Source: an uncultured Gammaproteobacteria bacterium (GTDB taxonomy: Bacteria; Pseudomonadota; Gammaproteobacteria; CAISUE01). Taken from it: a DNA stretch of 64,000 nt. The stretch lies in contig CAYYFQ010000003.1 of NCBI GenBank assembly GCA_964471475.1, forward strand, positions 164-64,163, given 5' to 3'. The notes beneath the pieces were generated by a model, which had not been told where the DNA came from, ran no database searches, and was given only the letters and a program-made list of their open reading frames with translations. Both the position numbers and the translations under genes were made by a program. Shown one piece after another: positions 5,588 through 56,600 of this stretch (positions are counted from its first letter, which is position 1; each line of letters starts with the position of its first letter).

Positions 5588-5875
5588 ATGAGTAAAGTAA
5601 ATCCAACTATCATTAGTAAACGCGATGGCTTAAAAGTTGTTCGCTTGCAAGTGGAGGCAGGAGGAATAGTACCCGAGCATTCAGCTAATGCACATGTAGT
5701 GATTGTGCCAATTAAAGGCAAAGGCACTTTTATCATTAATAAAGTACCACAACCTATTTTGGTTGGAGAAATCATAGAAATGGAGCCCAACACGCCACAT
5801 TCAGTAGAAGCTAATACAGATTTAGAGTTGATGGTAATTCAAATGCAGCTTGCACTTGCTAAAGCAGCATCTTAA
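5588..5875 (+). CDS. Small cupin-domain protein
   Basis: GGIVPEHSANAHVVIVPIKGKGTF....GEIIEMEPNTPHSVEA has the cupin two-motif pattern. An AGAGG Shine-Dalgarno precedes the ATG at 5588. Confidence 0.65.
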   Translation: MSKVNPTIISKRDGLKVVRLQVEAGGIVPEHSANAHVVIVPIKGKGTFIINKVPQPILVGEIIEMEPNTPHSVEANTDLELMVIQMQLALAKAAS

Positions 5876-27650: not shown

Positions 27651-27941
27651 TTAGTCTAAAAAATCTTCATCCTCAATGATGGGAGTGCTCGCAAGCACAG
27701 GCTCAACCGGTCTTTTATCAATTTCATTAATCATATCAGCGGTAATAAGATCAGCAGCTATTTCGCGTAAAGCGATCACGGTGAATTTATCTTTATCTAA
27801 ATTAAACTTATCTTTTTCAACGGTAATGCGAGGGTCATCTTTCCCTCGAGCCAACTGTCTTGCACGCTTGGCGGCCAACAATGTTAATTCAAATCGGTTT
27901 TCACAATGATGTAAACAATCTTCTACAGTAATACGCGCCAT
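27651..27941 (-). CDS. rpoZ: DNA-directed RNA polymerase subunit omega
   Basis: [30 protein letters not shown] is the canonical RpoZ N-terminus. Confidence 0.9.
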
Positions 27942-27990
27942 GGAGTGTGCCCTATTCTATTTTTAAAAATAAGAAGTATAGCATTTTTCA

Positions 27991-28020
27991 TTGCCTAACG
28001 CATCTAATTTTTGATACAAT
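27991..28020 (+). promoter_or_regulatory. Putative sigma70 promoter for tRNA-Pro
   Basis: TTGCCT (27991..27996), an 18-nt spacer, then TACAAT (28015..28020), 10 nt upstream of the tRNA 5' end. Confidence 0.4.
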
Positions 28021-28030
28021 CCTTTCTTTT

Positions 28031-28107
28031 CGGGGCGTAGCGCAGCCTGGTAGCGTACTTGCATGGGGTGCAAGTGGTCGCTGGTTCAAATCCAGTCGCC
28101 CCGACCA
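28031..28107 (+). tRNA. tRNA-Pro (anticodon GGG)
   Basis: Folded by hand. The acceptor pairs CGGGGCG with CGCCCCG (a C1:G72 pair, typical of bacterial tRNA-Pro) and is followed by A73 and an encoded CCA. The D arm is GCGC/AGCCTGGTA/GCGT. The anticodon arm is CTTGC-AT[GGG]GT-GCAAG. The T arm is GCTGG-TTCAAAT-CCAGT. Confidence 0.9.
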
Positions 28108-40300: not shown

Positions 40301-43300
40301 TGCGGAAAATCTGTCGCCGAAAATTGCCTTAATACACTCGGCGTTAACACGGCAACTTCAATGGGATGTTTGGTTAAGACTTGCTTCAAAGACTCCATGA
40401 TGGAATAGCGACTTGATAACAAATGTAAAATCCCGCCCACCATTAAAGTAGCCAAATCCCAAACCATGGCATCAAAATTCATCGCAGCAAATTGCAATAC
40501 ATGCGTACCGTCACCAACTTCTTGAATAAGCGCGGCCTCTCTTAAAGTATCTGCAACTCCATGATGCTCAATCATGACTCCTTTAGGCGTACCAGTTGTC
40601 CCAGACGTATAAATAACATAAGCGAGACTATCTGGACTCACGGTATTTCTTATATTTTCTTCTAATAGCTGCGTGTTAGCTAGACTGTTTAAATCGGTTA
40701 CCAAAAACGGGTATTCATCATTTGATAAGCTCAACCATCTGGGTACAAGATGAGTTTGGGTTAACACCAAAGACACTTGGGTGTCTTTCAACATGTAGCG
40801 CAAACGTTCATCAGGATGTGCAGGGTCCATCGGCACATAAGCTCCACCTGCTTTCAATACCGCTAAAATTCCAATGATTATTTCAAAAGAACGCTCTATG
40901 CTTAATCCCACTAGCTGGTCAGGTATGGAACCAATCCCTTGAGCGCTTAGATAATGCGCAAGCTGATTGGCTCTTGCATTCAGCACTCGATAAGTCATGG
41001 TTTGATCTTCATATACCAAGGCAATTTGGTCGGGTGTTCTTGTTACCTGGGCTTCAAAGAATTCATGAACCGTTGTTTTGGGGTAATCACATTGTGTTTG
41101 GTTCCATTCAACTAATTGTTGGTGAACTTCTGCTTCGCTAAGCAGTGACAATTCGTGTAAATAAGCTTCTGGCCGCTTGACCATCTGCGTTAAAAACCGC
41201 TCAAAGCGCTCCATTAAACGATGTATTGTTTTTGGTTTAAATAGATTTTTTGAATATTCCATATAAGCATGGATTGCTTTTCCTCGATATACCATATCAA
41301 GTGCCAGATCAAACTTCGCAATGGGGTATTCCCCCTCTTCTAAAAAAGAAACATCTAGATTTCCTAAAGGTTGTAATTCCGTAGTATCTTCTCGATAAGC
41401 CAACATCACTTGAAATATCGGATTTGCGTTGGTTTGACGGACAATATTTAAGTGATTCACCAGGTGTTCAAATGGAATATCTTGATGTGCATAAGCATCC
41501 AGCGTCGTCGCTTTTATTTGCTCAATGAATTCCTTAACCGTTAATTTTTCACTAAAGTCAGCTTTTAATGCTAAAGTATTGACGAAAAATCCTATCAGCG
41601 ACTCGGTTTGTTCTGCCCGCCGATTCGCAATGGGGCTACCCACCACAATAATTTTTTGACCACTATAGCGATGTAATACTGCCTGAAAAGCAGCTAACAT
41701 CACCATATACATCGTAACTTGGTTTGCTTGAGCAAATATTTTAAGTTTACTCACCACTTCTTCAGACAAATTAAAACCCACACGTCCACCGGCGTAAGTT
41801 AATTCCTTCGGGCGTGGGTAATCGGTAGGTAAGGTTATTAGTTCAGGAATATCATTGAGCTGTTGTTGCCAATAAGCGACTTGTTCTTGTAGCACCGCAT
41901 CTTTTAACCAAGTGCGCTGCCACAAAGTATAATCCACATATTGCACAGGAAGCGGCGCTAATTCCTGACTGCCTTCACTATACTGACGATAAAACTCAAA
42001 TAACTCTCGTAAGTAAATTTGTATGGATACACCATCCGTAATGATATGGTGCATCACAACAAATAAAATAAATGTATCTTTTTCTAAAACAATCAATTCA
42101 CCACGAATCAGTGGCCCACGTGTTAAATCAAATGGAGCTAAGATTCCCTCTTCTATGTATGTCTTTACGTCTTTAGACAAACTGGCAGCATGTTGAATCA
42201 AGAGTCTAGGAATTTTATTGGCTTCATCAACAACCTGAGTAGCTTCGCCGACCACCGATTCAAAGTGCGTGCGTAAGCTTTCATGGCGTTCGATCATTGC
42301 CATATAAGCACGACTTAAAGCATCGGTATGACATTGCCCCTGCAGCTTTAACACTAAAGGCACTTGGTACACTGCGTTCCCCGGCCTGAGTTGTTCTAAA
42401 AACCACAAGCGCTGCTGCGCAAATGATAAAGGAATAAACTCAGAACGCAATTGCTTCGTTAATACGGGTAACGCTAAGGTTTGACCCAGCGATTCATCAA
42501 TTGCTTTTGCCATCGCTTGCAAATCAGCTAAATTAAAAATAGCTTTTAAACTGAGCTCCGTTTGCCAACCTTCGCGAACTTTGGATAATAAGCTCATCAT
42601 GAGCAATGAGTGTCCGCCCAAATGAAAAAAGTTATCGTGTAAGCCAATTCTATCCACCGGTATATGCAATATCTCGGACCAAAGCGCTGCCAGGCGTTTT
42701 TCTGTTGTTGTTTCTGGCGCATGATAATCTTGCTTGTCGCCATCATCAATAGAGAGTTGTGACAATGCCTTGCGATCAATCTTCCCATTCACATTTAATG
42801 GCATGGTATCAACCAACATCATGTGCGCAGGAACCATGTAATCCGGTAAAACAGTTGCTAATTGTGTTCTTAGTGTTTGAATATAATCTTTCTTACTCTG
42901 TAAATCCTCACCCAATAGTTGAGCAGGAACAACATAGGCCACCAATTGTTTGTTACCGGCCTCTTCTCTGACTAAAACCGCGGCGCAATCAACCTGCGCT
43001 TGTTGTGATAATTGTTCTTCAATTTCCTCTAACTCAACTCTAAATCCTCGAATCTTAATTTGATTATCTGCACGTCCAATATAGTCCAAATCGCCATCGA
43101 CCGAATAACGCACCCAATCGCCTGTTTTATACAATCTTACGGGTTCGCTTTCGCTATCAAATCGATGCCAAATAAATCGCTCTTTGGTCAAATCCTCTCG
43201 ATTTAAATAACCTCGTGCTAAACCCACACCACCAATGTACAGCTCTCCAGCCGCCCCTAGCGGCAAAAGATTTAAATTCTCATCCAACACATAAGCTAAA

Positions 43301-45930
43301 GTATTACTAACAGGATATCCTATAGAAATATTTTCATCTTTGACCACAGCAACAAATGAGGTAATCGTCGTTTCAGTCGGACCATAGACATTAAAAATTT
43401 TTGTATCTGCATCGCCTTTAATTTTTTTACAAATACTGGCCGTTAATTTTTCACCTCCCGCTATAATTCTTTTGACAGACCTCACTCTATCAAACGTATA
43501 AAGTTCTAAAAGGCTCGGCGTAGCATGTACATGGGTAACACCATGCGCATTAAGATAATGGTAAAATTGCTCTTTTTGTAACCACAATCGATTAGGCAAC
43601 AGCAACAACTCATAACCATTTAACAGCGGCAACATGATTTGCTCTACTGAAGCATCAAAAACATAATTAAAAAATTGCAACATCACTTCGCTACGGTCAA
43701 GCTGATAACGTTGTTTTAGATCAAACAATAAACTTACAACACCAGCATGCTGTACAAGCACCCCTTTGGGTTTTCCTGTGGAACCTGAAGTATAGATAAC
43801 ATAAGCCAAATCTTGCGGCTTTGATGTTCCTACCAGATTGTCTTGCGCAAATGCATCAAAAATATCAGTCTGATCTAAAGGGACTATTGAAAATTGAGGC
43901 ATGCCTACAGACAATTTGCGCCATCTTGGTAATAAACTTTCTTGTGTCAGCAATATATTTATTTGAGTGTCCCCCAGAATATAGCTTAGCCGGTCATCGG
44001 GGTAAGTAGGATCCATCGGCACATAAGCAGCACCTGCTTTTAATATGCCTAATATGCCAATAATCATTTCAAAGGAACGCTCGATAACTAAGCCTACAAA
44101 TTGATCGGCATCTGAGCTTATTCCATGTGCTCTTAAGTAATGCGCTACTTGATTTGCTCTGGCATTCAGCTCGGCATAACTCATTCGTTGATTTTCATAA
44201 GCAAGTGCAACCTGATGTGGGGTTCTTGCAACTTGCGCTTCGAAGAGTTGATGCAATGTCGCTTGGGGAAAAGGCTGGGTCGTTTGGTTCCACGTTAGAC
44301 GTTGTTGATGAACTTCTGCCTCCGTCAGCATTCTAATGTCTTTAAGCGCAATTTGTGGCGCTGCAGTCACAACGTCAAGGATTCGACAATAGTGCGTAAA
44401 TAATCGCTCAATACAAGCTTGGGTATATAAATCACTTCGATAATTGAAAGTTAAATAAACTTGACGCTGGTTTTCAATGAATTCCACCCCGATAGGATAC
44501 TTGACTGTGCCTGGCGTTTCATGATCGACAGGATAGGATTGGAATGTAAAGGGTAAATGATAATCGGTTTGAGATGCACCTAAATTCAAGCCAAGCTGAT
44601 AGACAAAAAACGCTTCAATCAGATCGTCCGCATGTCCTGTTTTTTGGAAAGCGCTTCTAACAATATCATTATAGGGTACCTGACCATTGAGTAAATCGTA
44701 TTGCACATCGGCTTTTAATATTTTTAACCATGTTGAAAATGTCTGCTCATTTTCGAGCTGACAGCGAAGCGGTAATGTATTGACAAAACAACCGACGGCA
44801 GACTCACATCCCGGCAATAAACGATTGAAAAATGCTGTCCCAACCAATATATCTTTTTGCTGAGTATATTTAGCCAATAAAATAAAATAAGTAGCTAAAT
44901 ATGTGGTAAAGGGCGTTGCTCCTTGTGCTTTACTTAACCGTAGCATACTTTGATGGTAAGCTTCTGGTAAGATAAAAGTCATGCTGTGCCCGCTCTCTTG
45001 AGTAACTATTGCCGAGCTAGTACTATGCACATCAGCAGGTAATACAATACGTGATTCATAACCACTTAACCGTTGCTGCCAGTAGCGTAACTGCACTTGA
45101 TAATCTTGAGAAGTGCACCAGTCTTTCTCCCACGCCGCATATTGACGAAATTGAAAAGCCGGCGGTAATAACGATAATGATAATTGAGGATTTGGATCTA
45201 AAAGGGCGCGATATAACGTAAAAAGATCTTTAAAAAATATTGAACCAGAAGCACCGTCAACAACAATGTGATGAAAAACAAAAAGTAATACAACCGTATT
45301 GGTAGAAGTATAAAATAGCTTCACCCGCCATAAAGGCGCTTTACTTAAATCAAATGGCTCTTTAATAAAACTACATTCTTGTACCCCAAGATTTTTAATA
45401 TCAATCGCTGCATCACTTCTTTTATCAGCAGTAACCAAAGATACCTGCGCTTCAGGTAAAATTTCTTGAATAATTTGTCCTGTTTCATCAAGCCTATACT
45501 GCGTACGCAAAATCTCATGACGCTGCATTAACTGAGCTAATGCTTGCTTAAAAATTTCTTCAGAAAATTGCCCACTTAACTCCAGCACATTATGTTCGTA
45601 ATAAGAAGCAGGCTCACCGAGTAGCTTATCTAGAAAATAAAATCGTTCTTGGCTTTTTGAAGCAGACAACACAATAGGTGCAGTCTGCTTTGTGAAAGAC
45701 ATAAGTTCATATTGCCCCTCACCTGAAAGATCTTCTTCCTCACAAATCCCTTCATGCTCTAGTAATAACTCAACTAGCTCATCAAATCCTAATTCTGCCG
45801 CCAATGCAGATGGTGTTAGTTTAGACACCGCATCGACACTCGATAAATTAACACCCTTTTTCAAAAAATATTGAACAGCCTGTTGATCGTTTTTACGAAT
45901 TGCATCAAAAATATTTGCGTACTCATACAT
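28351..45930 (-). CDS. Tetramodular NRPS with a fused C-terminal extension (5859 aa): ANK(N)-C-A-T-C-A-T-C-A-T-E-C-A-T-TE-ANK-TM(~12, MATE/MOP-like)-OTU
   Basis: Single uninterrupted ORF with a GGAGG Shine-Dalgarno 9 nt upstream. C-domain His motifs: HHIVVDGASG (~45250), HHIITDGVSIQ (~42040), HHIITDGVSMQ (~38850), HHAILDGWSG (34351..34383). E domain: HHLIVDAVSW (~35710). A-domain cores: YTSGSTGKPKG (~43780), YTSGTTGTPKG (~40600), YTSGSTGQPKG (~37410), YTSGSTGRPKG (~32950). Carrier Ser codons: 42607..42609 (GGHSL), 39418..39420 (GGHSL), 36244..36246 (GGDSI), 31783..31785 (GGNSL). TE GWSMGG Ser codon: 31390..31392. Confidence 0.95.
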   Translation of the reverse strand: MYEYANIFDAIRKNDQQAVQYFLKKGVNLSSVDAVSKLTPSALAAELGFDELVELLLEHEGICEEEDLSGEGQYELMSFTKQTAPIVLSASKSQERFYFLDKLLGEPASYYEHNVLELSGQFSEEIFKQALAQLMQRHEILRTQYRLDETGQIIQEILPEAQVSLVTADKRSDAAIDIKNLGVQECSFIKEPFDLSKAPLWRVKLFYTSTNTVVLLFVFHHIVVDGASGSIFFKDLFTLYRALLDPNPQLSLSLLPPAFQFRQYAAWEKDWCTSQDYQVQLRYWQQRLSGYESRIVLPADVHSTSSAIVTQESGHSMTFILPEAYHQSMLRLSKAQGATPFTTYLATYFILLAKYTQQKDILVGTAFFNRLLPGCESAVGCFVNTLPLRCQLENEQTFSTWLKILKADVQYDLLNGQVPYNDIVRSAFQKTGHADDLIEAFFVYQLGLNLGASQTDYHLPFTFQSYPVDHETPGTVKYPIGVEFIENQRQVYLTFNYRSDLYTQACIERLFTHYCRILDVVTAAPQIALKDIRMLTEAEVHQQRLTWNQTTQPFPQATLHQLFEAQVARTPHQVALAYENQRMSYAELNARANQVAHYLRAHGISSDADQFVGLVIERSFEMIIGILGILKAGAAYVPMDPTYPDDRLSYILGDTQINILLTQESLLPRWRKLSVGMPQFSIVPLDQTDIFDAFAQDNLVGTSKPQDLAYVIYTSGSTGKPKGVLVQHAGVVSLLFDLKQRYQLDRSEVMLQFFNYVFDASVEQIMLPLLNGYELLLLPNRLWLQKEQFYHYLNAHGVTHVHATPSLLELYTFDRVRSVKRIIAGGEKLTASICKKIKGDADTKIFNVYGPTETTITSFVAVVKDENISIGYPVSNTLAYVLDENLNLLPLGAAGELYIGGVGLARGYLNREDLTKERFIWHRFDSESEPVRLYKTGDWVRYSVDGDLDYIGRADNQIKIRGFRVELEEIEEQLSQQAQVDCAAVLVREEAGNKQLVAYVVPAQLLGEDLQSKKDYIQTLRTQLATVLPDYMVPAHMMLVDTMPLNVNGKIDRKALSQLSIDDGDKQDYHAPETTTEKRLAALWSEILHIPVDRIGLHDNFFHLGGHSLLMMSLLSKVREGWQTELSLKAIFNLADLQAMAKAIDESLGQTLALPVLTKQLRSEFIPLSFAQQRLWFLEQLRPGNAVYQVPLVLKLQGQCHTDALSRAYMAMIERHESLRTHFESVVGEATQVVDEANKIPRLLIQHAASLSKDVKTYIEEGILAPFDLTRGPLIRGELIVLEKDTFILFVVMHHIITDGVSIQIYLRELFEFYRQYSEGSQELAPLPVQYVDYTLWQRTWLKDAVLQEQVAYWQQQLNDIPELITLPTDYPRPKELTYAGGRVGFNLSEEVVSKLKIFAQANQVTMYMVMLAAFQAVLHRYSGQKIIVVGSPIANRRAEQTESLIGFFVNTLALKADFSEKLTVKEFIEQIKATTLDAYAHQDIPFEHLVNHLNIVRQTNANPIFQVMLAYREDTTELQPLGNLDVSFLEEGEYPIAKFDLALDMVYRGKAIHAYMEYSKNLFKPKTIHRLMERFERFLTQMVKRPEAYLHELSLLSEAEVHQQLVEWNQTQCDYPKTTVHEFFEAQVTRTPDQIALVYEDQTMTYRVLNARANQLAHYLSAQGIGSIPDQLVGLSIERSFEIIIGILAVLKAGGAYVPMDPAHPDERLRYMLKDTQVSLVLTQTHLVPRWLSLSNDEYPFLVTDLNSLANTQLLEENIRNTVSPDSLAYVIYTSGTTGTPKGVMIEHHGVADTLREAALIQEVGDGTHVLQFAAMNFDAMVWDLATLMVGGILHLLSSRYSIMESLKQVLTKHPIEVAVLTPSVLRQFSATDFPHLKTLIAMGEALDESLMQYWAEKCRIFINGYGPTEATICTTLSVYNSQAKNFLAARIGRPIANTNLYVFDENTQLLPIGIPGELYVGGQRLARGYLNRQDLTNERFIWHRFSGESDPVRMYRTGDLVRYSADGALEYIGRVDNQIKIRGLRVELEEIEAQLLKQAHIAHAAVIVREESGEKQLVAYLVTDQVFNEDVQSKKDYIQALRTQLAKFLPNYMIPAHMILIDVMPLNVNGKVDRKALSQLFIDDCAQQDYRAPETATEKHLAELWSALLHIPVDRIGLNDNFFHLGGHSLLMMNLLSEVREAWQTELSLKTIFNLASLQEMASTIDESLGQTLSLPALARKVRPDVVPLSFAQQRLWFLEQLMPGKAVYQVPLVVKLSGRCDIDVLSRAYTAMIERHESLRTRFASVAGEAVQVVDETDKIPRLMVRDVASLGEDVRAYLQKGIATSFDLTRGPLIRGELIVLGEDAFILFVVMHHIITDGVSMQVYLQELVRHYRQYSEGGHELTPLPVQYVDYTLWQRSWLKDEALQEQVDYWKQQLSDIPEMISLPTDYKRPKELTYSGGRVSFHLPLEVVEEIKAFAKANQLTMFMVVLAAFQTVLHRYSGQKIVVVGSPIANRRVQQLESLIGFFVNTLALKADFSEALTVNELIEQVKATTLDAYAHQDIPFEHLVNHLDIARQLNANPIFQVMLAYQEYIEQPELWEGTQATFLEEEYPIAKFDLTLSIHDQGKGFNGSIEYAKDLFKEETIACFSEHFQRILLEMVKRPEVYLHDLAFLSETEIHQQLIEWNQTQRPYLLTTIHALFETQVERTPDQTALVYEEHTMTYRELNARANQLARYLRTQGIGTTPDQLVGLGTERSFEMMIGILGILKAGGAYVPMDPIHPDERLRYMLQDTKVSLVLTQAHLISRWSALSSEAQQFSVIALDAMHDDSEFSQDNLLSLAKPEDLAYVIYTSGSTGQPKGVMIAHQGVVNLCARTARYDGFTQGSHVLQFSSMSFDAMVWEWTSALTLGGVLHLLSSRYPVLEALQIVLAQHPIEITLLTPSVLRQIPKKDLAHLKLLFVGAEALDPMLFNQYRHLCHFINLYGPTEITVFATNCIQTSDSLLPASCIGCAIDNTQMYVLDTHMQLLPKGAVGELYIGGVGLARGYLNREDLTQERFIWHRFDRESAPQRLYKTGDLVRYCADGYVEYIGRVDNQIKIRGFRVELEEIEAQLLKQAHVVHAAVIAKEASGSKQLVAYIVCDQIFDEGSENKQDYIQALRAQLATFLPDYMIPAHMMLLDQMPLTVSGKVNRQALPKFASDMLEQYVEPSNAVEATLCCIWAEVLNLEKVGVEDDFFRIGGDSILSIQLASKLRAAGFACSIKTLFECRTVQSLAQAISAHNALSIIDAEQGVLEGSFGLLPIQQYFFASHHIRPHHWNQSFLIKVPQLEFARLEAILPLLVNQHDALRLCYQNGAQTYHCAIPIPEIKRLECANLTVDDLQAKLTEWQSHFDIINGPLWQVGYIEGYADGSARIYFALHHLIVDAVSWRILAEDLKTLYEGGVVGTKTSSYRQWVNAVSTYGDRHQDELPYWRSVVQDQRVYPKLDDYPHTYQMKLDQDWTRDLVQRSSQTYYTEINDLLLTALAYALHAWNGSSGNHIILEGHGRENIAETLDVDHTIGWFTTLYPVRLVLGADVGSSIKLIKECLRKIPTKGLGYGVFRYQLQDQVLNAHPLPVVSFNYLGQFNATGDQLWQLSAEASGTGVHEDNLSDYYLNLNGAVVNGELQFSVTSKLGEPLSLAFIAAFEEALKTIIRHTMECIQTGLQQHTPSDFPYVTISATLLNQLEAEGAIEDIYPANSLQQGFIHHALMQPEDDAYRVQLLMDYHAPLEVDHYQAAWQKAIETYPILRTCFAWEEALIQIIYRSGKLIFKEHDISDEVDKEAAVKAIQAADREEAFDLSKRELLRIHLIKHAIDHYTIMKSEHHAILDGWSGPILLDTVQTYYAQLRQGESIIIQPDKSYIKVQEYFVTHKETVKRYWQEKLARGAEANDINALLSCHVDLDKVKAIRDPQTAIIILKNEDYASLHRLARAEGFTVNVLLQYAWHKLLHVYTRSTTTIVGTTIAGRDLPIEGVERSVGLYINTLPLIIDWDGEETVLEQLKQLHQRIMELNTHSYVELANLQQRGRRLFHSLFVFENYPVERAMVDEESQIVFRSSIEKLDYPLGIVAYESNGELGISLKYAGEYLETERAKQLLEQMVRIVKVLSMKLHQTHQQISLASEEEYQLQIYHWPQTQFTYPQMTLPELFEAQVDKTPDQVALVYEGQAMTYQKLNARANQVAHYLRSEGIGAIPNQLVGLGMERSFAMIIGILAVLKAGAAYVPMDPAYPEQRLYYMLEDTQITLLLTQTHLVQKWLSLSNAERPFAVVPLDSTAQYGMFPQENLPQVSRPECLAYVIYTSGSTGRPKGVMIETHGVVNYLFNLHEHFADAQRIDFSSNLSFDLSVTTTLYPLCFGKTIFLYSGSLLESDRFVQHLVENQIDLVKSTPALMSAIHLGFNGNYRLMYCIVGGEKLDRQSARHILSYSDCIYDEYGPTETTVGATYYRITDQTREYNIGKSYHNYQCYVLDPYHNILPIGVAGELYIGGAGLARGYLHRDDLTSERFITHQFSEMDAPVRLYRTGDLVRYAIDGNLEYIGRADNQIKIRGFRIELEEIETQLLKHAYVVNAVVVARENQGSKQLIAYLVLDQAFDGDSQDYVSQVRSQLATFLPDYMIPAQLVLLDKIPLTANGKVDRKALPALDFDQLSETYIAPQTVTERKLAELWSQMLHIPVECIGMRDNFFDKGGNSLLVIQLIHSVKAQLSIEMTIGHFYQSPTIETIIQAQESPSMDLMDASIIPFAVDRLAPPIFLFHPRSGFATLYRSFSSALAREFSVYAVNYPGLVEEEMVYYKAFSALAKDYIQRIKTVAPQGPYHLGGWSMGGSIAVEVTRQLQAAGEVVATLILIDSGYQTYADEVGYPFMKLFTNHLLAKLHPELANQFDVAQRITDISFHVENLMLAYQAEKIQAVEKIVFVKCQGHVVSLANQYAANIAWGFNSLFNGLEHCFAESQPIHFADIACGHFEVFDQPWQNILNRLVPSLLSEDALNAYRIGDDRHNLLLAAKRGATYQVRRILSETAHQLLNVQDEEGKSLLHHSIEFGHIHLANFLIARGIDINLRDHDGQTALDGLSTHTMSMAYLRDCLSLRLDIVPASNSDLEQAGAIHVDRAEERLQQVARRKGKHALHIKQLWRTFKATCRRDFIDSSWHSGLEVSLPYTAVGVLNLTQKLLILRMLSSNSLALIGAFVLDDTVVSTVSSLAQHLNTPLANYLNVALSRNNADEVGRAFNAGLFLSTSMVIPLFVYGSLAKQIGEAIGMESDLTQAWSLLAFTHMIGAIPALGSITLEGFYSIVYERRMMAFGAAMEAGAALLSTFLFNEKGDLNGQNLGIALSIGSISKFAFYMLDLYRQDHLRHYPLFRNFPWPLIKRYWADMGRYLYTPFFSLSNYLLTAALFASKDSSALDLVGYAVARSAFDLVNLSGSIIGPVSSLIMSRFEAGSQYKNILSMGVLGMTTSLSFAAIPAVVLSAISGEQLTQLFISTEAIPDLIESTFFGSVRFSAYFFIGISLINSLRTLLNRYLGQSFAYSAIQKIACYCSFLLCNGLILTTFLAFDVDAQNLIPEIFAVQAVSLLLELFEWLRVSDFECALEQGEQKIVEVETDLLPSIPVSKRPVSQIMPFFATAKLNTGSIDPHDMAKLSTLLINLERIKYELDLEQALHLSQATSGENVGSSSLLLTQATRYGFAIEDRLVWHDGNCFLHAVEDQLKIRNIEQNVSYEQLRERAAAFMLTHSEEFKPFIEALDEANPESYIRRAYKDGEWVDDPMISALARTMDMTFIIIRSDVEQPTVINPDKEHCLYIGYYVGLHYVSLRGAAIQDETRILIPRNNFKNT
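28396..28833 (-). other. C-terminal OTU-family cysteine protease (deubiquitinase-like) domain
   Basis: The Cys loop is VWHDGNCFLHAV (Cys codon 28759..28761) and the His loop is YYVGLHYVSL (His codon 28429..28431), about 110 aa apart as in OTU folds. An acidic/aromatic segment lies between them (YKDGEWVDDPMISALA). Confidence 0.8.
29120..30440 (-). other. Polytopic membrane domain (about 12 hydrophobic helices, about 440 aa) with MATE/MOP-exporter-like two-fold internal symmetry
   Basis: It runs from ...FIDSSWHSGLEVSLPYTAVGVLNL to ...LLLELFEWLRVSDFE. I counted 12 hydrophobic segments by eye. Each half has a MATE-like loop motif (NVALSRNNADEVGRAFNAGLFL and SLIMSRFEAGSQYKNILSMGVL). Confidence 0.6.
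30630..30880 (-). other. Post-TE ankyrin repeats (about 3)
   Basis: HNLLLAAKRGATYQVRRILSE...DEEGKSLLHHSIEFGHIHLANFLIARGIDINLRDHDGQTALDGL. Confidence 0.75.
30900..31640 (-). other. Type I thioesterase (TE) domain
   Basis: PPIFLFHPRSGFATLY... and PYHLGGWSMGGSIAVE (GxSxG). Confidence 0.85.
34800..36110 (-). other. Epimerisation (E) domain of NRPS module 3, followed by a DCL-type C domain
   Basis: It starts at ...GSFGLLPIQQYFF and carries HHLIVDAVSWRIL. The next C domain starts at YPANSLQQGFIHHAL. Confidence 0.8.
45750..45930 (-). other. N-terminal ankyrin-like repeats (about 2) of the NRPS
   Basis: MYEYANIFDAIRKNDQQAVQYFLKKGVNLSS...LTPSALAAELGFDELVELLLEHEG fits the ANK helix-turn-helix consensus. 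It is homologous to the PKS2 N-terminus. Confidence 0.65.
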
Positions 45931-45990
45931 CAGTATAATCCTCCAATAGAAAATTGATGTTTTATAACCGGCATGGCAGAATTACCCGCT

Positions 45991-48900
45991 CTATGGGGGA
46001 GCCAAAGAACTGGCAGCCGCTCCTAGTTGCTCTGTTGGTTTATTGGCTTCTTTAGGAGTTGGCAAAGAAGGGGGTTGAGGGAAAAACTCCATCGCGCTGC
46101 TTAAAGCGCGTGGCGACCTTGATCTTCCTAGTACCAACCGCTCAATAAATAATTGGCCTTCTTCTGGTATTGAAGATAAAAGTTGTACGATATCTTCCTC
46201 TTTAATATCTTGATAAAATAATTTCCCTTGTCGAATATTTTCTTTCAATGGCTCTACCGCTGGAGATTCTGATTCGATAATAAAATTACGAATGGCAATC
46301 GCGCCCAACAAATATTGCCGCACCGTTTGATCTTCCGTTAATGACAGCATTGCTTGATCAACCACAGGTAGATACCCTAAAAATGCTTGGGCTATTCTTG
46401 ACTTCTGACTATACAAGGCCAAAGCTAAAGGGGTAACACCTAAATGTGTTCGTTGGTTCAAATTAGCTCCTTTTGACAGTAACCACAGCGCCATATCCAT
46501 GTCATCTAATTGCACCGCCAAGTGGAGGCTCGTTTTACCATTAGCACCCGAGAGATTAATTTTCCTTGTTCCTTTTTCAAGTACTGAAGCAAGAAGTTTT
46601 TTATTATTTTTCCTCACGCAAACAAATAAGGTGTCGTTACCAATATCTGTTTTAAGCTCTATAAAACAGCTGAGGTGCAATGCCATAGCAGCAATACTTT
46701 TTTGCTGTAGAACATGCATGGGGTCAAATTGCTTCGTAGGTTCATCTTCCTTAAGTAAGGCCTCTTTTAACTCTGCTAAGCTAGTTTCGACTAATTGCGC
46801 TATTTGCTTATGCAATGTCAACCACTGCAACAGAGTTATTTTTTGAGTATCGCTTACATCATCAAATACACCTAATCTTTCTATTAAAAAGTGCGTCTTA
46901 AATATTTCCACCAATTGCATTTCTAAGCTTGTTCTTGGGGGGCAATATGCTGTTATCGCTGGTTGTCTTGGTTGAATCTGTACCGTTTTTGCTTCGGCTA
47001 ATTGATTCAATTGTGAAGTAATATATTGGCTTAGCTTTTCTAAAGTAGCACATTCCAGCATAATGGCATTGGACAAAATAATGTCGTTACCTAAAAGCGC
47101 TTGCAACCGATTTTTTAAATCCACTGCCATCAAAGAGTCAAGCCCCATCGCGGCAAATTCTGCATGAACATCAATCTCGCTCACTTCCAATTGGCTCACT
47201 TGTGCTACAAGTGCTTTCAATTTTTCTTGCACTGTTAATTGACGCACTTCCATCGACAATGCTAATAATCCTGTTAGCCATTTCCCATCGCCTGCAGTTG
47301 ATTTCATCGGAGCAGCAGATTGGTCAATTAATAGCTTTTCCAATAGCCGGTTAGTTATCGGGTTCATACTCGCCATTTGTGCCCAATTTGCATCAATCAA
47401 TATTGGTGAAGATTCTTGACCCAGCATTACTTGCTCAAATAAAGCTATTCCTTTGTCTCTACTGAAAGGATGGACCCCTCTAGATTCATGGAAAGACTGC
47501 AAACGACTGTCAGTTGCCATACCCACCTCGGCCCAAGGTCCCCAATGAATACTCTGGCCACTTAAACCTTGTTGTCGACGATAGGCCATCAATTCATCCA
47601 TAAAACTATTAGCTGCTGCATAATTTAACTGTCCAACATTACCGATGATAGAGGCCACTGATGAAAAACTAATAAAATATTCAAGTTCCGGCTGGCTATA
47701 GTGATGCAAATACCATAACGCCAATTTGGGTTTTAATACGGCCTCAAATTGTGGCCAACTTTGCTTCTCTAATAAATTATCTTGAATCACCCCTGCTGCA
47801 TGAATAATACCGCGCAGCGCAAGTCGTGTTTCGGTTAATTGCCTAAATAGATCCTCTACAGCATTAGCATCGGCGATGTCCAATTGAGATACTTGTACGC
47901 GTATGCCTTGACTTTGCCATTCACTGATTATCGCCTGTACTTCAGAAGAAGGAGCATGCCGACCAATGAGAATCAGATCCTCCACCCCTTGAGCAACCAG
48001 AAACTTCGCAACTTCCCAACCTAAACCTCTTAACCCTCCGGTGATTAAAAAGCTGCCTGGACGTTTTTCGAGTTTAGCGTGATATTCTGGAACAGTGCTT
48101 ATAATTATTTTGCCAATGTGTTCAGCACGCTGCATGGCTTTAAATGCTTCTTTCACTTCTGTTAATGCATAATGCTCATACGGTAAAGCGTGATAAATAC
48201 CTGTCTCAAATTGGGGCGATATTTTGTTCCACAATTTTTGAATAAACTCAGAATCATGAGCAATCATGCTATCCAAAGCTAACACCGTATAAACAATATC
48301 TTTACGACAATGATAAATTTGCTCTTCTGTCCATACATCGCGTTTACTTATTTCAACAAACCGCGCTTCTTGTGCACACACTTGTAAACTTGTTTCAATA
48401 TAACCTTGACCCGTTAACGTGTTGAGCACTACATCTACGCCTCGTCCCTGTGTATCTTGTAAAATAGCTGCTCCATACGCCAAGCTACGTGAATCATAAA
48501 TATGCTGTATCCCTAATGATTTTAAATAATCCCGCTTGCGCGCATCCCCCGCCGTCGCATAAATCTTCGCGCCAATGGCTTGTGCAATTTGAATTGCAGC
48601 TAAACCTACCCCACCTGTGGCTGTATGAATTAATACGCTTTCTTTAGGTTTTAGTTGAGCGCATTGAATGAGTGCTTGATACGCCGTTAAAAATACCACT
48701 GGCAACCCGGCTGACTCCGCATGACTTAATTGCTGAGGTTGTTTTGCTACGATGCGACCATCAACAATAACTTCACTTGAGAAGCTTCCCGCACAGTGAC
48801 GAACATCTTCCGCTAGCTGAGCGCCTATACCTAACACGCGATCTCCGGCTTGATAATGATCTATCCAATCACGACCAACTTCTACCACAACTCCTGCAAA

Positions 48901-51900
48901 ATCGCTCCCTAAAGAACCTGCATCGCCTGGATAGAGATTCATTGCGTTCAAAACATCTCTAAAATTTAAAGCAGCTGCTTTAAATTTAATACGAAGCTCA
49001 TGTGCTGCTAATGCACGTTGCGCACCAATGTTTTTAACCAAATGCAGTTCATCAATTAACCCTGCATTGCCTTTAACTAAGGTATAAGGCCCTGCTTCTT
49101 GTGGAAGCACTTTTTTATCTATAGCGATTGCTCCTTGCAATCTTCCTACATAGCGTTTGCCTGCACGATAGCGTACCTCACGCTCTATGAGACCATGCGC
49201 TAATATCTGTGTGATATAACGCCATTGTTCTAATTGAGGTTCAAAAAAATCCATATCAACATGGCAACATCGGATATCCCGTGCAGATAACTCTACCCAT
49301 AATGAGCGCATAAATCCTATTAATCCTGCCTGTACTAAATCATGATTATGCGCTCCTTGGCTCCATAGCACACAAGCTTTTAAGGAAGTAGTTGGCGTAA
49401 ATAATGTTTGCGTAATCAGGAACAAGCGGTGTAACAAGCGCTCACATGCGCTTGTTGGAGTAATGGTTTCTTCTAACTCATGTTGCAAATATTGCCAGTG
49501 AATGACTACTTGCACTGGGGATATCGGTAATGACATTATTTTAACTAAAGCTTGTTCACTATTCTCTGTTACTTCCCAAGCAGATGTTTCTGATCGATTC
49601 CATATTTGATAACAACCATTCGCAAGCATCACAATGCCTGTTTCATAGCGGTGACGAATTTCACTTGCCCATGTTTCATTAGCCACTAACCACAATGTTG
49701 GCTGTATTACACCGCCATTAGCAACATCTTTTTCACAAACTTGCCAAGCATATTCATAACATTCAGCTATTTGTTTACGCTTTAATCCCTGACTAAGCTG
49801 ATTCAAATAACTACTGAACTGAGCACGGTTCACAGCTTGTATTTTGACATCATGCAAATGGCAGCAACACTCACCCGATCGATCATACACGGCAACTTGT
49901 ATCTCTGTAGGAAAACCTGTTTCATTACATTTCCAATTTAGCGAGATATGACTTGCATGATTAAGAGCCTCTCTTTCTCCTGTATAAGTAAGCGCACCAA
50001 AACTCCCGAGTAAATAAATCATTTGGGCTAATGCGTGTTCACGATCATGCACAGCTAACATCAAGGCTTGCAGGACGCCATCTAATAAAGCTGGAGAAAG
50101 ATAATAGCCAGCATCAAGTTGCGTTGGCGCTTTTAACCGTACAACAGCTTCGTTTTCACTATAATTCACTAGATCAATTACTTGAAAAGCTGCTTGATAA
50201 TTAAATCCTGCCCTATTTGCTAATCTATAAAAATCATCTCCTCGCATCACTTGTCGGCAACGCCCTTCAATAGCAGGCGTCTCTAGCAATGAAGGCATTG
50301 ATGTCGTTTCTAACATGCGCACTTGCCCTTCGGCATGAAGCACAGCGCTTCCTGGCTCATCTTTTTCAGTACGGCTGTAAATCATAATTCGTAACACTTT
50401 GCTTGCTTTATCAATACTTAGCTGTGTTTGCAGCAAACGATCTTTGTTTAAGATCAATGGCGCATGAATATCAAGACTTTGCACTTGAACAACCGGCAGT
50501 TGCTCTTCTTCTAATAAAAAACGCGGAAAAGTCAAGCGTCCAGCCGCCAACATCATTTCCAGCAGCGCTACGCCCGGCATAATTGCCGTCTGTAAAATTT
50601 GATGATCCCACAAATATCTGAGCGCCGGATCGCTCAGTGATTGTTGATATAGCACTCCTCCTTCGGGTAAAACGGTCAACTGCCCCAATAAAGGATGACC
50701 GCTAGCCATTGTTCCATTGACCGAATAAGATGCTTGGTGTCTATGCGTTAATGCTTCTAGCCAATAACGTTTTCTTTGAAACGCATACGTCGGCAAGCTT
50801 ACCTTGCGATAAGAGTACCTTTGGGACCTGTAATAATTTTCCCAATATATTTCACAACCGGCTACATAACACTGACCTAAAGCCACTAACATGCTTTCAT
50901 GATTCCCAACATCTGCCTTGAGACTGTAACTCCAGCTTAAACCTTCCCTACCTTCTGCACATTGTTGTCCAAGAGTGGTTAATATAGCCCCAGGCCCTAC
51001 TTCAAGATATAACTGATTCTCTTGGAAAGATCTTTCCATCGCTCTTAAATAATTCACTGGACTTAGTAATTGATCACACCAATAATCCGCAGTAATCGCT
51101 TCCAATCGATCGCCCGTTACCGTTGAAATCATTGTAATTTGTGGCACTTTATAATGAATTGTTTCTGCAAGCTTTTTAAAATCTTCTCGCATAGGCCGCA
51201 TATGATCACTATGAAAAGCATGAGAAACCGATAACAGCGTCGAACGGATATTTTTGTCTGCGCAGCTTTGTTTCAATACTTGCAGTTTGTTTTTATCTCC
51301 CGAAACTACCGTTTGTTTAGGGGCATTAATACCCGCAATACTCAAGCCTAAATCTGCTATTAACGCTCGCGCTTCTTCCACAGAACATTGTAAAGCAAGC
51401 ATTCCTCCTTGATTTTCAGGTAACCCTTGCATCAGTCGCCCTCTTGCTGACACCAGTTTCAGCGCTTCTTCTAATGTCATCACCTCAGCAATCGTTGCTG
51501 CTACCAATTCCCCAATGCTATGACCAATAAGCTGATGTGGCATCACTCCTGAACTCATCCACAGCTTAGCCAAAGCATATTCCAATGCGAAAATCACAGG
51601 TTGCGCATATTGAGTTTGATTCAATAACTCCGTGTTATCACCAAACAATATACTATAAAAAGGTTGGGGCAATTCTTCTTTTAATAACTCCGCACATTCA
51701 TCTAATAGCGTTCGAAAAACAGGATATGTTTCATATAGCTCACGCCCCATATGGGCATATTGACTCCCTTGGCCCGTAAATAAAAACGTAATGGTTTTAG
51801 GAACCCTCGCATCACCACGAAGTAACTCATCCCTTGCTAGCTTTTCTTTGAAATCTTCTACGGTTCGCGCTACGACCGCACCTCGATAGGCAAAATGACT

Positions 51901-53680: not shown

Positions 53681-56600
53681 TTATCTACGATATTCCTCTG
53701 CCTGTTTTTTCTCTAAGGTATCTTTGGTCGGCTGCGATGACGAAGCCTGTTGGCCAAAAATTCCTACTCCTTCTAATAGAGGAGCGATAGCATGAGACGA
53801 AGTGCTTTGTGATACCTCTAAAATCCTATGCTCAATAAAGCGCTTTCCATAATCAGGTAAAAGCAATGATAGTTGTCTTATAAGATCAAGCGAAATATCT
53901 TGATCAAATCGTTTTCCTTGACGTAAATTTTCTTCAAAAGGCTTTATCCACGGGAGCCGTGAACCCAAAATACAATCACGTATAGCCATAGCACTCAAGA
54001 GATCATGCCTTATCGCCTCCGTTGATGTGAGCGCAAGTACTGCTTCATCTACTTTAGGCAAGTATATTAAAAGTTTTTTTACTACATCAAATTGCTGATT
54101 AAACAAAGCTAATGCCAACGGTGTAACACCTAGCCGAGTTTGCTGGTTGAGGTCAGCTCCCTGCGATAGTAACCATACTACCATCGCTGTATTGCCTAAT
54201 TGCGCTGCCAAATGAAGACTGGTTTTACCATTGCTATCTGCCATGTTAATTTTCTTCGCCCCTTTGGTAAGCAAGGAAGTAATTAAACTTTGATTATTTT
54301 TTTTGACAAAGGTAAATAAAGGATCCCGCTCAATAGCAACCTGAGACTCTACCAAGCAACTTAGATAAAGCGACATTTCTGCAATCGTATTTTTTTCCAA
54401 GATATTGATATCTAATTTTATTGCTGCATCTTCAGCTGCTTCTTGTCCTTGTGCTGGCAGCACTTTCATTTGCTCTTTCAGCGCGTTACTCAGTTCTTGC
54501 ATAGCGCGATGCATGCTCATCCACTGAGCAAGTGTGGTATTTTTCAAATCATTGATTTTGTCAATTACACTTATTGTCTGTATTGCAAATCGCTTCTTAA
54601 ACATTTCAACTAATTTTGTTTCTATTAACGTCCTTGGTAATCCATAAGCCATTTCTGCTGATTTTTCTGTTTGCTGAATACCTGTCGTTTTTTCTTCAAA
54701 AACATTAATCTGCTCAGTAAGATATTGGCTCAGCCGTTTTAGATTTGGATAGTCGAACAGCACTGTATTTGGTAAAGCGGCACTGTCTCCTAAAAAGCTT
54801 TGCAAGCGATTTTTTAGATCCATAATCATTAAAGAATCTAATCCCATCTCGGTAAATCCAGTTTGTTCGTTGAGGTCTTGCTCATTGAGTCCTGTAATCT
54901 TAGCAATCAGCTGTTTTAGTTTTGCTGCAATCCAAGATTGTCTTTCTGGTCTAGGTTTGCTTAAGATTTCTTTTAGCCACAGTGCATTTGTTGAGTTCAC
55001 ATTACCTTGACCTACGCTGGCTGCAATTAAAGGGTTCATAAAACGTTTGAGATTTGGTGTTGACATAGCACTAAACTTTTCCCAATTTGCTGATAGCACT
55101 GCTGTCTCATCTACGTTCGGATCTAATAAAATACGCTCAAGCGCGGCGACGCCTTCTTGTACACCCAGTTGCTTTAACCCTATTTTTTCATGGCGTGCTT
55201 TATAAATCGCTGCCGTGCCAATCTCCGCCCAAGGACCCCAGTGGATAGTTTGACCTACCAAGCCTTGCGCCCTTCTTGCATGAACTAAAGCATCTAAAAA
55301 AGCGTTGGCACTAGCATGGTTGGCTTGACCTACATTGCCTAAAAACGATGCTGTTGAGGAATACATCACAAAATAGTCTAATTCCATATTCAGGCGCTGG
55401 CTCCATTGATGTAAGTGCCAAGCACCATAGATTTTAGGTTTAAACACATATTCCATATGCGCCCAATCTTGCTGCAGTAATGTAGCATCCATCAATAAAC
55501 CGGCTGAATGAATAATACCTTTCAACGGCAAACATTCAGTTTGAATCATCTGCAATAAATCTTTAACCTGAATTTCATCACTCACGTCGACTTGCTTCAC
55601 TTGAATATCTACACCACTAGCCCGCCATTGCTCGAGCGTAGTTGCTGTTCTCGCATCAACTTGTTTTCGTCTACTGATGAGAACCAGTTGCTTCGCACCT
55701 CGATTCACCAGTAATTCGGCTGTCGCCAACCCTAGACCCGAAAGTCCTCCCGTAATTAAGTAACTTGCTTGTTGATCGAGTTGTAACTCGATTTGCAAAG
55801 GCCTTTGTAGCACAATCACCACTTTGCCGATGTGCTTTGCTTGTTGCATATGTTGAAATGCTTCTACTGCATGACCTATAGTAAAAGCCGTTACTGGCAA
55901 GGCTGTATAAGTTTTCTCTGCGAATAACGGTCGCATCGCTTCCCACATGACAGGTATATGTTCAGGCGATCGCGCCAAATCTTCGTCTAAAGCAATAACA
56001 CTATATTTAACATCAGCCCTTACTGCTGCCATCTGTGCTGTAGTCCAAATAGCCCGCTTACTTAATTCAATAAAATGACCATGTTGTGCACAACATGCAA
56101 GCGTGGCTTCGACAAATCCTTCTCCCGTTAAACTATTAAGCACGACATCCACGCCACTACCTTGAGTATCAGCTAATAACGCTTCTTGATAGGCTAACGA
56201 TCGCGAGTCATAGATATATTTAACACCGAGGTGACTCAAATAAGCACGCTTTTCAGGAGTTCCTGCGGTTGCATAAATTTCAGCACCCAGATACTTTGCC
56301 ATCTGAATAGCTGATAAACCGATTCCCCCCGTTGCAGCATGAATCAGAATCTTATCGCCTTTCTTTAATTGAGCTTCTTCAATTAACGCACGATAATTAG
56401 TTAAAAACACCGAAGGCAAAGTGGCCGCTTGGGGATATGTCAATTCTCGTGGTTTCGCATACACTTGGGTATGATGCGTAATAGCGATACTTGCCAAGCT
56501 ACCCCAAGCAATTCCGAACACGCCCTCACCTACATGTAGATGAGTCACTGCGGCCCCTACTTCAAGTACAGTACCCGAAAAGTCACTTCCCAAAGGCGAG

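What the first reader, a model, noticed from the sequence alone, without database searches (positions are those of the whole stretch)
45750..46650. Ankyrin repeats on both sides of the PKS2-to-NRPS junction: possible ankyrin-based docking domains
**What the sequence shows.**
- PKS2 ends with about 3 ANK repeats (NGKTSLHLAVQLDDMDMALWLLSKGANLNQRTHLGVTPLALAL).
- The NRPS begins, 60 bp downstream, with about 2 ANK repeats (IFDAIRKNDQQAVQYFLKKGVN...LTPSALAAELGFDELVELLL).
- The same pairing recurs at the PKS1/PKS2 junction.
- The N-terminal peptides are homologous to each other (MYQNIFEAVKANDINAV... versus MYEYANIFDAIRKNDQQAV...).

**Inference.** Classical docking domains are short helical or beta-hairpin elements. 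A split or stacking ankyrin solenoid that mediates ordered subunit assembly would be a new class of docking domain.
Basis: inference. Interest (0 to 1): 0.82.

Follow-up and report, generated by a model that had tools for sequence, protein, structure and literature searches.

The report
Ankyrin domains capping PKS/NRPS subunit ends
Three giant antibiotic-type enzymes encoded side by side carry matching ankyrin-repeat domains exactly where one protein must hand its product to the next, which makes them good but unproven candidates for a new kind of connector between such enzymes.

Summary
On the minus strand, PKS1 (53681..>64000) and PKS2 (45991..53649) each end with a homologous region of about 320 aa placed after the last ACP. 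That region contains three canonical ankyrin repeats. PKS2 and the NRPS (28351..45930) each begin with a homologous, acidic two-repeat mini-ankyrin of 55-62 aa.

One related cluster, on a metagenome contig (L005), has the same pair at both of its inter-subunit junctions. That makes 4 of 4 junctions. No ankyrin domain occurs at any module boundary inside a polypeptide.

The ankyrin termini are about as conserved between the two clusters as the catalytic domains (42-61% identity). The tails beyond them cannot be aligned. No classical docking-domain family was detected. No paper in the searched library links ankyrin repeats to docking.

A docking role is therefore the best explanation, at about 0.5 confidence, but no interaction was shown. 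An AlphaFold2 model of the fused termini shows the C-terminal ankyrin stack flanked within its own chain by further confident helices on both sides. Foldseek did not superpose the two ankyrin units as one continuous solenoid.

The family is rare. It was absent from 185,579 species-representative genomes for the two specific motifs scanned.

The parts
45745..45930 (-). NRPS residues 1-62: acidic two-repeat mini-ankyrin (net charge -5). It is followed by an acidic linker and then the first condensation domain.
   Evidence: Translation. Pfam Ank_2 25.4 bits, below cut-off. hhalign 97.1% against generic ankyrin. PDB DARPin matches. AlphaFold2 gives four helices with pLDDT 85-96. Net charge.
45931..45990 (-). 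60-nt intergenic spacer between the PKS2 stop and the NRPS start, containing a GGAGG ribosome-binding site
45994..46119 (-). PKS2 C-terminal tail (aa 2511-2552). Predicted disordered and not conserved among the four homologues.
   Evidence: pLDDT 36-46. Unalignable in A3.
46120..46365 (-). PKS2 helical extension after ankyrin repeat 3 (aa 2429-2510; five predicted helices). Present in PKS1 and P0143, absent in the L005 upstream PKS.
   Evidence: pLDDT 92-96. Alignment A3.
46366..46644 (-). PKS2 ankyrin repeats 1-3 (aa 2336-2428)
   Evidence: Pfam Ank_2 at aa 2341-2424. PDB ankyrin hits. AlphaFold2 helix pairs at 108-126, 142-160 and 175-192 of the construct.
46651..46722 (-). Conserved helix immediately before the ankyrin repeats (aa 2310-2333). 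It carries the family-specific motif IA[AE][MI][AS][LF][YH][LI]SC.
   Evidence: Alignment A3. Predicted helix at 78-101. Motif used.
46753..46941 (-). PCP-like remnant between the true ACP and the ankyrin domain (aa 2237-2299). The carrier serine position is Thr.
   Evidence: hhalign against the cluster's own PCPs: 57% probability, E 1e-4, 41 columns. This is weak.
53485..53649 (-). PKS2 residues 1-55: acidic two-repeat mini-ankyrin ahead of the KS domain (net charge -9)
53684..54643 (-). PKS1 C-terminal 320 aa, homologous to the PKS2 C-terminal region. The conserved helix plus ankyrin repeats lie at about 54062-54409.
   Evidence: 43% identity, E 2e-87. Pfam Ank_2 80.7 bits. Coordinates.
30640..30861 (-). 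Third ankyrin block, after the NRPS thioesterase (aa about 5024-5097). It is only generically similar to the docking-type domains.
   Evidence: Pfam Ank_2 30.1-30.9 bits and Ank_5 28.9-32.3 bits. 26% identity, E 7e-6 to the PKS2 C-terminus.

Best explanation
The two elements are a matched pair of subunit-terminal interaction (docking) domains that hold PKS1, PKS2 and the NRPS together in the right order.

- **C-terminal element:** a folded region after the last ACP, made of a PCP-like remnant, a conserved helix, three ankyrin repeats and usually a helical extension.
- **N-terminal element:** a 55-62 aa acidic mini-ankyrin with two repeats, lying ahead of the first KS or C domain.

The pairing would let the upstream ACP deliver its chain to the downstream KS or condensation domain.

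**Shown:**
- the domains exist and are ankyrin
- they sit only at polypeptide ends
- both partners are present at all four junctions examined in two diverged clusters
- they are conserved like catalytic domains

**Inferred:**
- that the two elements bind each other
- that binding is probably not a canonical end-to-end continuation of one solenoid, and that the small acidic mini-ankyrin instead docks on a surface of the larger, neutral-to-basic C-terminal domain
For: **1. Position.**
- The C-element follows the last ACP of PKS1 and PKS2.
- The N-element precedes the KS of PKS2 and the first C domain of the NRPS.

**2. Same N-element on different kinds of subunit.** It sits on a KS-first and a C-first subunit (47-52% identity). 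This points to a junction function rather than a catalytic one.

**3. A second cluster has the same pairs.**
- It was found by exhaustive HMMER search: P0143, E 3.7e-60, a single full-length match. It lies on contig L005.
- Its upstream PKS ends with the C-element.
- P0143 has both the N- and the C-element.
- Its NRPS starts with the N-element.
- Its module architecture differs: P0143 has three modules, PKS2 has one.

**4. Termini only.** Pfam reports no ankyrin domain at any intra-polypeptide module boundary of PKS1, P0143, the L005 upstream PKS or the window NRPS.

**5. Conservation between the two clusters.**

| Region | Identity |
|---|---|
| C-terminal ankyrin core | 42-54% |
| N-terminal mini-ankyrin | 36-61% (44% and 61% for the position-matched pairs) |
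| KS | 62-70% |
| First C domain | 52% |
| First A domain | 45% |
| KR | 34% |
| ACP | 26-43% |
| C-terminal tails | not alignable |

**6. No classical docking family.** No Pfam docking, dimerisation-element or TubC_N family hit appeared at E <= 1 on either kind of terminus.

**7. The last subunit lacks the element.** The terminal NRPS lacks the homologous C-element.

**8. Charge.** The mini-ankyrins carry net charge -5 to -11. The C-terminal ankyrin cores carry 0 to +7.

**9. Fold.** In the AlphaFold2 fusion model both units fold confidently, with pLDDT above 90 for the core and 85-96 for the mini-ankyrin; pTM is 0.66.
Against: - No interaction was measured or modelled. The structure tool returns no coordinates, PAE or multimer score.
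- The two clusters are homologous, so the four junctions amount to only one or two independent evolutionary observations.
- The N-termini of the first subunits lie outside the window and outside the contig. It is therefore unknown whether a subunit with no upstream partner lacks the mini-ankyrin.
- The same NRPS uses a further ankyrin block after its TE domain, where no downstream module exists. Ankyrin repeats in this system are therefore not exclusively docking elements.
- The charge complementarity is modest.
Confidence: 0.5

Rival explanations
1. Split-solenoid docking. The N-terminal mini-ankyrin stacks end-on to the last repeat of the upstream C-terminal ankyrin domain and completes one continuous five-repeat solenoid across the two proteins.
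For: - In L005 the upstream PKS ends only 7 residues after the core segment that includes repeat 3.
- The next protein starts with a cap-like ankyrin repeat.
- The roughly 11 residues across the stop and start are, by my reading, about the length of a normal inter-repeat loop.
- The mini-ankyrin aligns over the first ~50-60 residues of DARPins and has no C-cap of its own. One face may therefore be open.
Against: - In PKS1, PKS2 and P0143, repeat 3 is followed by about 80 aa of helices predicted at pLDDT 92-96, plus a tail.
- A conserved helix precedes repeat 1.
- Foldseek aligned both ankyrin units of the fusion model to long ankyrin proteins only at rmsd 22-26 A and TMq 0.2-0.3. They were therefore not modelled as one canonical stack.
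Confidence: 0.12
2. The ankyrin termini do not bind each other. Each recruits some other partner or location, such as a trans-acting enzyme, a membrane site or a host protein, as ankyrin domains of intracellular bacteria often do.
For: - The NRPS has a third ankyrin block after its TE. That block is joined to about 7 hydrophobic segments and an OTU protease domain. Ankyrin repeats therefore serve other contacts in this same assembly line.
- No interface was demonstrated.
Against: - The strict pairing, with a C-element on every subunit that has a successor and an N-element on every subunit that has a predecessor.
- Absence from internal module junctions.
- Retention of both partners in a second cluster.
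Confidence: 0.2
3. The C-terminal region is mainly a self-association or stabilising element for the dimeric PKS, like the post-ACP dimerisation helices of class 1 docking domains. The N-terminal mini-ankyrin is a separate stabiliser.
For: From general knowledge, modular PKSs are homodimers, and class 1 C-terminal docking domains include a dimerisation bundle (review PMC9113145).
Against: - The same N-element sits on an NRPS, which is normally monomeric.
- The element is absent from internal ACPs.
Confidence: 0.08
4. The ankyrin termini are a neutral relic of domain shuffling or gene fission and have no present function.
For: - The cluster looks accessory. It lies next to a tRNA-Pro gene and is missing from a syntenic relative.
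- From general knowledge, ankyrin repeats are frequently shuffled in host-associated bacteria.
Against: - Both elements are as conserved as the catalytic domains at a divergence where the tails are unalignable.
- The reading frames are intact, and the domains are predicted to fold.
Confidence: 0.05

Closest known systems
SLiM / beta-hairpin docking domain pairs of hybrid PKS-NRPS and NRPS systems (TubC-type betaHD)
   Same: A folded N-terminal domain of about 60-70 aa sits ahead of a C or KS domain. It is proposed to recognise the C-terminus of the upstream subunit, and it is used at PKS-to-NRPS junctions (review PMC9113145).
   Different: - Here the N-terminal domain is all-helical ankyrin, with no strands predicted.
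- There is no TubC_N Pfam hit.
- The upstream partner is a folded domain of about 250 aa, not a short linear motif.
- The upstream tails are not conserved.
Class 1 and class 2 cis-AT PKS docking domains (four- and eight-helix bundles)
   Same: Same positions: after the last ACP and before the first KS. Same presumed job of ordering subunits.
   Different: - Those are short helical peptides of 20-80 aa that form coiled-coil bundles.
- Here both partners are ankyrin-repeat domains.
- The C-terminal one is several times larger.
- No Pfam docking family was detected.
Ankyrin-repeat protein-binding domains, including DARPins
   Same: Clear sequence and predicted-fold membership: three canonical repeats at the C-termini and two ankyrin repeats at the N-termini. 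From general knowledge, ankyrin repeats are generic protein-binding scaffolds.
   Different: I found no report of them as terminal domains of PKS or NRPS subunits or as docking domains. Among the 150 best ankyrin-containing matches in 1.84 billion representative proteins, only the window's own PKS2 (P0026) and P0143 are PKSs.

Membership tests
Ankyrin repeat (Pfam Ank_2 PF12796 and relatives) | C-terminal regions match the ankyrin profile above the curated threshold | tested here: met
   - Ank_2 51.6 bits (PKS2) and 80.7 bits (PKS1) against a cut-off of 27.3.
- P0143 40.2 bits and the L005 upstream PKS 48.3 bits.
- PDB ankyrin hits to E 2.8e-66.
Ankyrin repeat (Pfam Ank_2 PF12796 and relatives) | N-terminal 55-62 aa peptides are ankyrin repeats | tested here: met
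   - Below the Pfam cut-off at 17.7 and 25.4 bits.
- hhalign 97.1%, E 5.4e-11.
- hmmsearch against single DARPins, E about 3e-13.
- Four predicted helices in two pairs, pLDDT 85-96.
PKS/NRPS docking domains (functional class) | Located at the extreme C-terminus after the last carrier protein, and at the extreme N-terminus before the first KS or C domain | tested here: met
   Domain maps. Sequences.
PKS/NRPS docking domains (functional class) | Occur as complementary pairs at inter-subunit junctions and not at intra-polypeptide module junctions | tested here: met
   4 of 4 junctions in two clusters carry both partners. Pfam reports no ankyrin domain at internal junctions of PKS1, P0143, the L005 upstream PKS or the window NRPS.
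PKS/NRPS docking domains (functional class) | The two partners bind each other specifically | not testable with these tools
   Only a monomer AlphaFold2 run on a fusion construct was possible, with no coordinates or PAE. The Foldseek result is indirect.
PKS/NRPS docking domains (functional class) | First subunit lacks the N-element and last subunit lacks the C-element | tested here: inconclusive
   - The last subunit (the NRPS) lacks the homologous C-element.
- The N-termini of the first subunits lie beyond the window end and the contig end.
Class 1 cis-AT PKS docking domain (Pfam Docking PF08990 / PKS_DE) | Profile match to the helical docking or dimerisation element | tested here: not met
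   No such family at E <= 1 on the 100-aa N-termini or the 299-aa C-termini.
Beta-hairpin docking domain (TubC_N type) | N-terminal alpha-beta-beta-alpha-alpha fold or a profile match | tested here: not met
   No Pfam hit. The predicted N-terminal domain is all-helical.

The most novel reading that the evidence does not exclude
A new structural class of megasynthase docking domain. A folded ankyrin-repeat domain at the C-terminus of one subunit binds a two-repeat mini-ankyrin at the N-terminus of the next. The same pair works at both PKS-to-PKS and PKS-to-NRPS junctions, and it may include a split-solenoid variant in the cluster whose upstream PKS ends right after repeat 3.
Probability: 0.45. 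Interest if true: 0.8.

Novelty: new variant of a known kind. Interest (0 to 1): 0.62.

Why it matters
Docking domains decide the order in which PKS and NRPS subunits assemble, and they are a main handle for re-engineering assembly lines. All structurally characterised classes in the 2021 review (PMC9113145) are one of three kinds:
- short helical bundles
- helix-hand motifs
- a short peptide bound to a small beta-hairpin domain

A pair built from ankyrin repeats would be a folded, larger interface that serves KS-first and C-first subunits alike. From general knowledge, binding specificity on the ankyrin scaffold can be redesigned, as in DARPins, so such a pair could yield orthogonal connectors.

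It would also show eukaryote-like repeat domains being recruited into bacterial secondary metabolism for a purpose other than host manipulation.

Tried and rejected
- **The search for homologous proteins.**
  - The C-terminal region returned only generic ankyrin proteins of 300-520 aa, not even the query itself.
  - The N-terminal alignment returned nothing.
  - This word-indexed search did not retrieve these giant proteins, so no conclusion on rarity was drawn from it.
- **Genome-contig scans.**
  - The first scan found nothing.
  - The second included the family-specific motif IA[AE][MI][AS][LF][YH][LI]SC and found only weak generic ankyrin matches.
- **Metagenome-contig scan.** It gave three generic ankyrin loci from human gut (L002-L004). 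These were rejected as relatives.
- **Single-sequence AlphaFold2 of the fusion.** It failed at pLDDT 39.5 and was discarded.
- **Alignments containing L005-derived or spliced P0143 rows.** The final alignment therefore had only two rows over the mini-ankyrin.
- **Taxonomic placement via FumC.**
  - It was uninformative. The nearest relative is 75% identical and unnamed.
  - My initial guess of Legionellales is unsupported, so the source is left as an unidentified Gram-negative-type bacterium (TamB, Mla, T2SS genes).
  - The Rickettsiella paper was irrelevant.
- **A conserved short linear motif in the C-terminal tails as the real docking element.** The tails differ in length and sequence, and one homologue has none.
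- **Position-specific grouping of the C-domains (before-NRPS versus before-PKS).** It is not clear from overall identity. By eye in the printed cores, a few residues track junction type (IAA versus IAE; DMALWL versus xMV[VI]WL).

Full report
**1. What is in the sequence**

Three large genes lie head to tail on the minus strand:
- PKS1, 53681..63946, which continues past the window end
- PKS2, 45991..53649, 2552 aa
- an NRPS, 28351..45930, 5859 aa

Pfam gives these domain orders:
- PKS1: ...ACP-KS-AT-MT-DH-ER-KR-ACP
- PKS2: KS-AT-DH-ER-KR-ACP
- NRPS: C, A and T (carrier) domains in repeated modules (five condensation matches in two overlapping scans), then a thioesterase

The PKS2 stop and the NRPS start are 60 nt apart, with a GGAGG ribosome-binding site between them. 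PKS1 and PKS2 are 31 nt apart.

**2.

*C-terminal regions.*
- Both PKS proteins carry about 320 aa after their last ACP. The two regions are 43% identical over 338 aligned positions, E 2e-87.
- Pfam Ank_2 scores 51.6 bits (PKS2) and 80.7 bits (PKS1) on the isolated termini, against a cut-off of 27.3.
- A profile of the two hits ankyrin and DARPin structures down to E 2.8e-66, always through profile positions about 100-205.

*N-terminal regions.*
- PKS2 and the NRPS both start with a homologous peptide: 47% identity over 47 aa, E 1e-9.
- Pfam leaves it below threshold at 17.7 and 25.4 bits.
- A four-sequence profile is 97.1% probable (E 5.4e-11, 54 columns) against generic ankyrin segments.
- The same profile hits single DARPins in the PDB at about E 3e-13. 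The match usually runs over the first ~50-60 residues of the DARPin. I read that stretch as the N-cap plus first internal repeat.

So the C-termini carry three canonical repeats and the N-termini carry two.

**3. Anatomy from a structure prediction**

A single-sequence AlphaFold2 run on the PKS2 C-terminal 320 aa joined to NRPS aa 1-75 failed, with pLDDT 39.5.

A second run used a 46-row alignment (A6). Its rows were:
- the two window fusions
- the P0143 C-terminus
- 43 generic ankyrin fragments covering the core only

This run gave mean pLDDT 78.9 and pTM 0.66. Reading the helices against the sequence:

| Construct residues | Feature | Confidence (pLDDT) |
|---|---|---|
| 9-67 | helical segment | block means 52-79 |
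| 78-101 | long helix with the motif IAAMALHLSC | block means 52-86 |
| 108-126, 142-160, 175-192 | three ankyrin helix pairs | 86-97 |
| 200-275 | five further helices | 92-96 |
| 279-317 | disordered tail | 36-46 |
| 327-379 | mini-ankyrin, two helix pairs | 85-96 |

- The 9-67 segment weakly resembles the N-terminal half of the cluster's own PCP domains (hhalign 57%, E 1e-4). The carrier-serine position is Thr in three homologues and Ser in one.
- In this model the ankyrin stack is flanked on both sides by helices of the same chain.
- Neither coordinates nor PAE were available.

**4. Relatives**

*The one true relative.*
- The exhaustive HMMER search of 1.84 billion representatives was swamped by giant multi-repeat ankyrin proteins.
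- It contained one true relative: P0143, 4733 aa, matched in a single stretch over profile positions 5-268, E 3.7e-60.
- Among the 149 other listed proteins, P0143 was the only one carrying PKS or NRPS motifs.
- P0143 lies on a 35.8-kb metagenome contig (L005).

*The L005 cluster.*
- Its upstream PKS is cut at the contig start. That PKS ends with the PCP-like remnant, the motif helix and three ankyrin repeats, then stops 7 residues after the core segment that includes repeat 3.
- P0143 starts with MYENISAAIQDNNLNAVKAFLNG..., a mini-ankyrin. It ends with the full C-terminal region.
- The following NRPS starts with MFDTIFDAIRANNKRAVQDFLEKG...LTPSNLALELDYDELAELLLEHEG.
- P0143 has three modules where PKS2 has one. 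The cluster is therefore related but not a copy.

*Rarity.*
- Two scans of 185,579 species-representative genomes found nothing specific. The second used the family-specific motif.
- The window's own proteins are singletons at 90% identity.
- The family is rare. The tools could not show how rare, because hits below 212 bits were hidden.

**5. Why docking is the best reading**

- **Position.** The elements sit where docking domains sit.
- **Same N-element on both subunit types.** It precedes both a KS and a condensation domain.
- **All junctions carry both partners.** All four inter-subunit junctions in the two clusters have both.
- **Internal junctions carry none.** Pfam reports no ankyrin domain at any intra-polypeptide module junction of PKS1, P0143, the L005 upstream PKS or the window NRPS.
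- **The last subunit lacks the homologous C-element.** Its post-TE ankyrin block is only generically similar: 26% identity, E 7e-6.
- **Conservation between the two clusters**:

| Region | Identity |
|---|---|
| C-terminal ankyrin core | 42-54% |
| N-terminal mini-ankyrin | 36-61% (44% and 61% for the position-matched pairs) |
| KS | 62-70% |
| AT | 62% |
| First C domain | 52% |
| First A domain | 45% |
| KR | 34% |
| ACP | 26-43% |
| C-terminal tails | not alignable |

- **No known docking family.** No Pfam docking, dimerisation-element or TubC_N family appears on either terminus at E <= 1.
- **Charge.** The mini-ankyrins are strongly acidic (net -5 to -11). The ankyrin cores are neutral to basic (0 to +7).

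**6. What is not supported**

It fits only the L005 upstream PKS. There the chain ends just after repeat 3, and the spacing across the stop and start resembles, by my reading, a normal inter-repeat loop.

In the other three C-terminal regions, about 80 aa of confidently predicted helices and a tail follow repeat 3.

Foldseek aligned the fusion model to long ankyrin proteins over 280-370 columns, but only at rmsd 22-26 A and TM 0.2-0.3. The two ankyrin units are therefore not arranged as one canonical stack in that model.

This is weak evidence. It was a monomer network, the alignment had two rows over the mini-ankyrin, and the linker was a natural 40-aa tail. It argues against the specific geometry, not against docking.

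**7. Caveats**

- No binding was shown.
- The two clusters share ancestry, so four junctions are not four independent observations.
- The N-termini of the first subunits could not be read.
- Ankyrin repeats have another use in the same NRPS: a block after the TE, followed by about 7 hydrophobic segments and an OTU protease domain.

**8. Literature**

- Five full-text searches combined ankyrin with docking domain, polyketide synthase, nonribosomal peptide, assembly line, NRPS, PKS or Legionella. None turned up a paper linking ankyrin repeats to subunit docking, judged from titles and abstracts.
- The 2021 review of all structurally characterised docking domains lists helical bundles, DHD domains, COM helix-hand motifs, PAX three-helix bundles and SLiM/beta-hairpin pairs. 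It has no occurrence of 'ankyrin repeat'.

**9. Context**

- The cluster ends next to a tRNA-Pro(GGG) gene (28031-28107) and rpoZ.
- A syntenic relative (FumC 75% identical) has the same housekeeping gene order, from rpoZ to degP. It has Mla and NADH-dehydrogenase genes in place of the cluster.
- The cluster is therefore accessory.
- The organism could not be named.

**10. Verdict**

- The docking interpretation is plausible and consistently supported by anatomy and comparison, but it is untested. I put it at about 0.5.
- The split-solenoid mechanism is unlikely for most junctions, at about 0.12.
- If the docking role is confirmed, this is a new structural class of a known kind of element.

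Noticed in passing
window 28354-30861 (minus strand; NRPS aa about 5024-5859): After its thioesterase, the NRPS continues with a third ankyrin block, then about 7 hydrophobic membrane-like segments (aa 5196-5609), then an OTU-family cysteine protease domain (Pfam PF02338, 54.8 bits). Fusing a membrane region and a deubiquitinase-like protease to an NRPS is unusual.
   Followed up: partly
window 27651-28107, compared with L042/L043: tRNA-Pro(GGG) lies at 28031-28107 (+), 244 nt from the NRPS stop. rpoZ lies at 27651-27941 (-). A syntenic relative (FumC 75% identical) keeps the order rpoZ-hydrolase-acyl-CoA dehydrogenase-T2SS F-fumC-gidB-parA-phoH-tamB-cvpA-degP. It has Mla/ABC and NADH-dehydrogenase genes instead of the cluster, and no tRNA there. 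The cluster therefore looks like an accessory insertion.
   Followed up: partly
window 46753-46941 and the equivalent part of PKS1 (about 54450-54640): Between the true ACP and the ankyrin domain lies a roughly 65-aa segment resembling the N-terminal half of a peptidyl carrier protein. The phosphopantetheine serine is replaced by Thr in three homologues and kept as Ser in the L005 upstream PKS (hhalign 57%, E 1e-4).
   Followed up: partly
window 6690-7922 (-) and 9475-11907 (-): There is a phage-type integrase gene, and nearby an 810-aa ORF with no Pfam match.
   Followed up: no
L001 (Logan SRR16481182, 1455 nt): A public sequencing run holds a contig encoding the identical 266-aa hydrolase next to rpoZ. 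The same or a very close organism therefore occurs in that sample.
   Followed up: no
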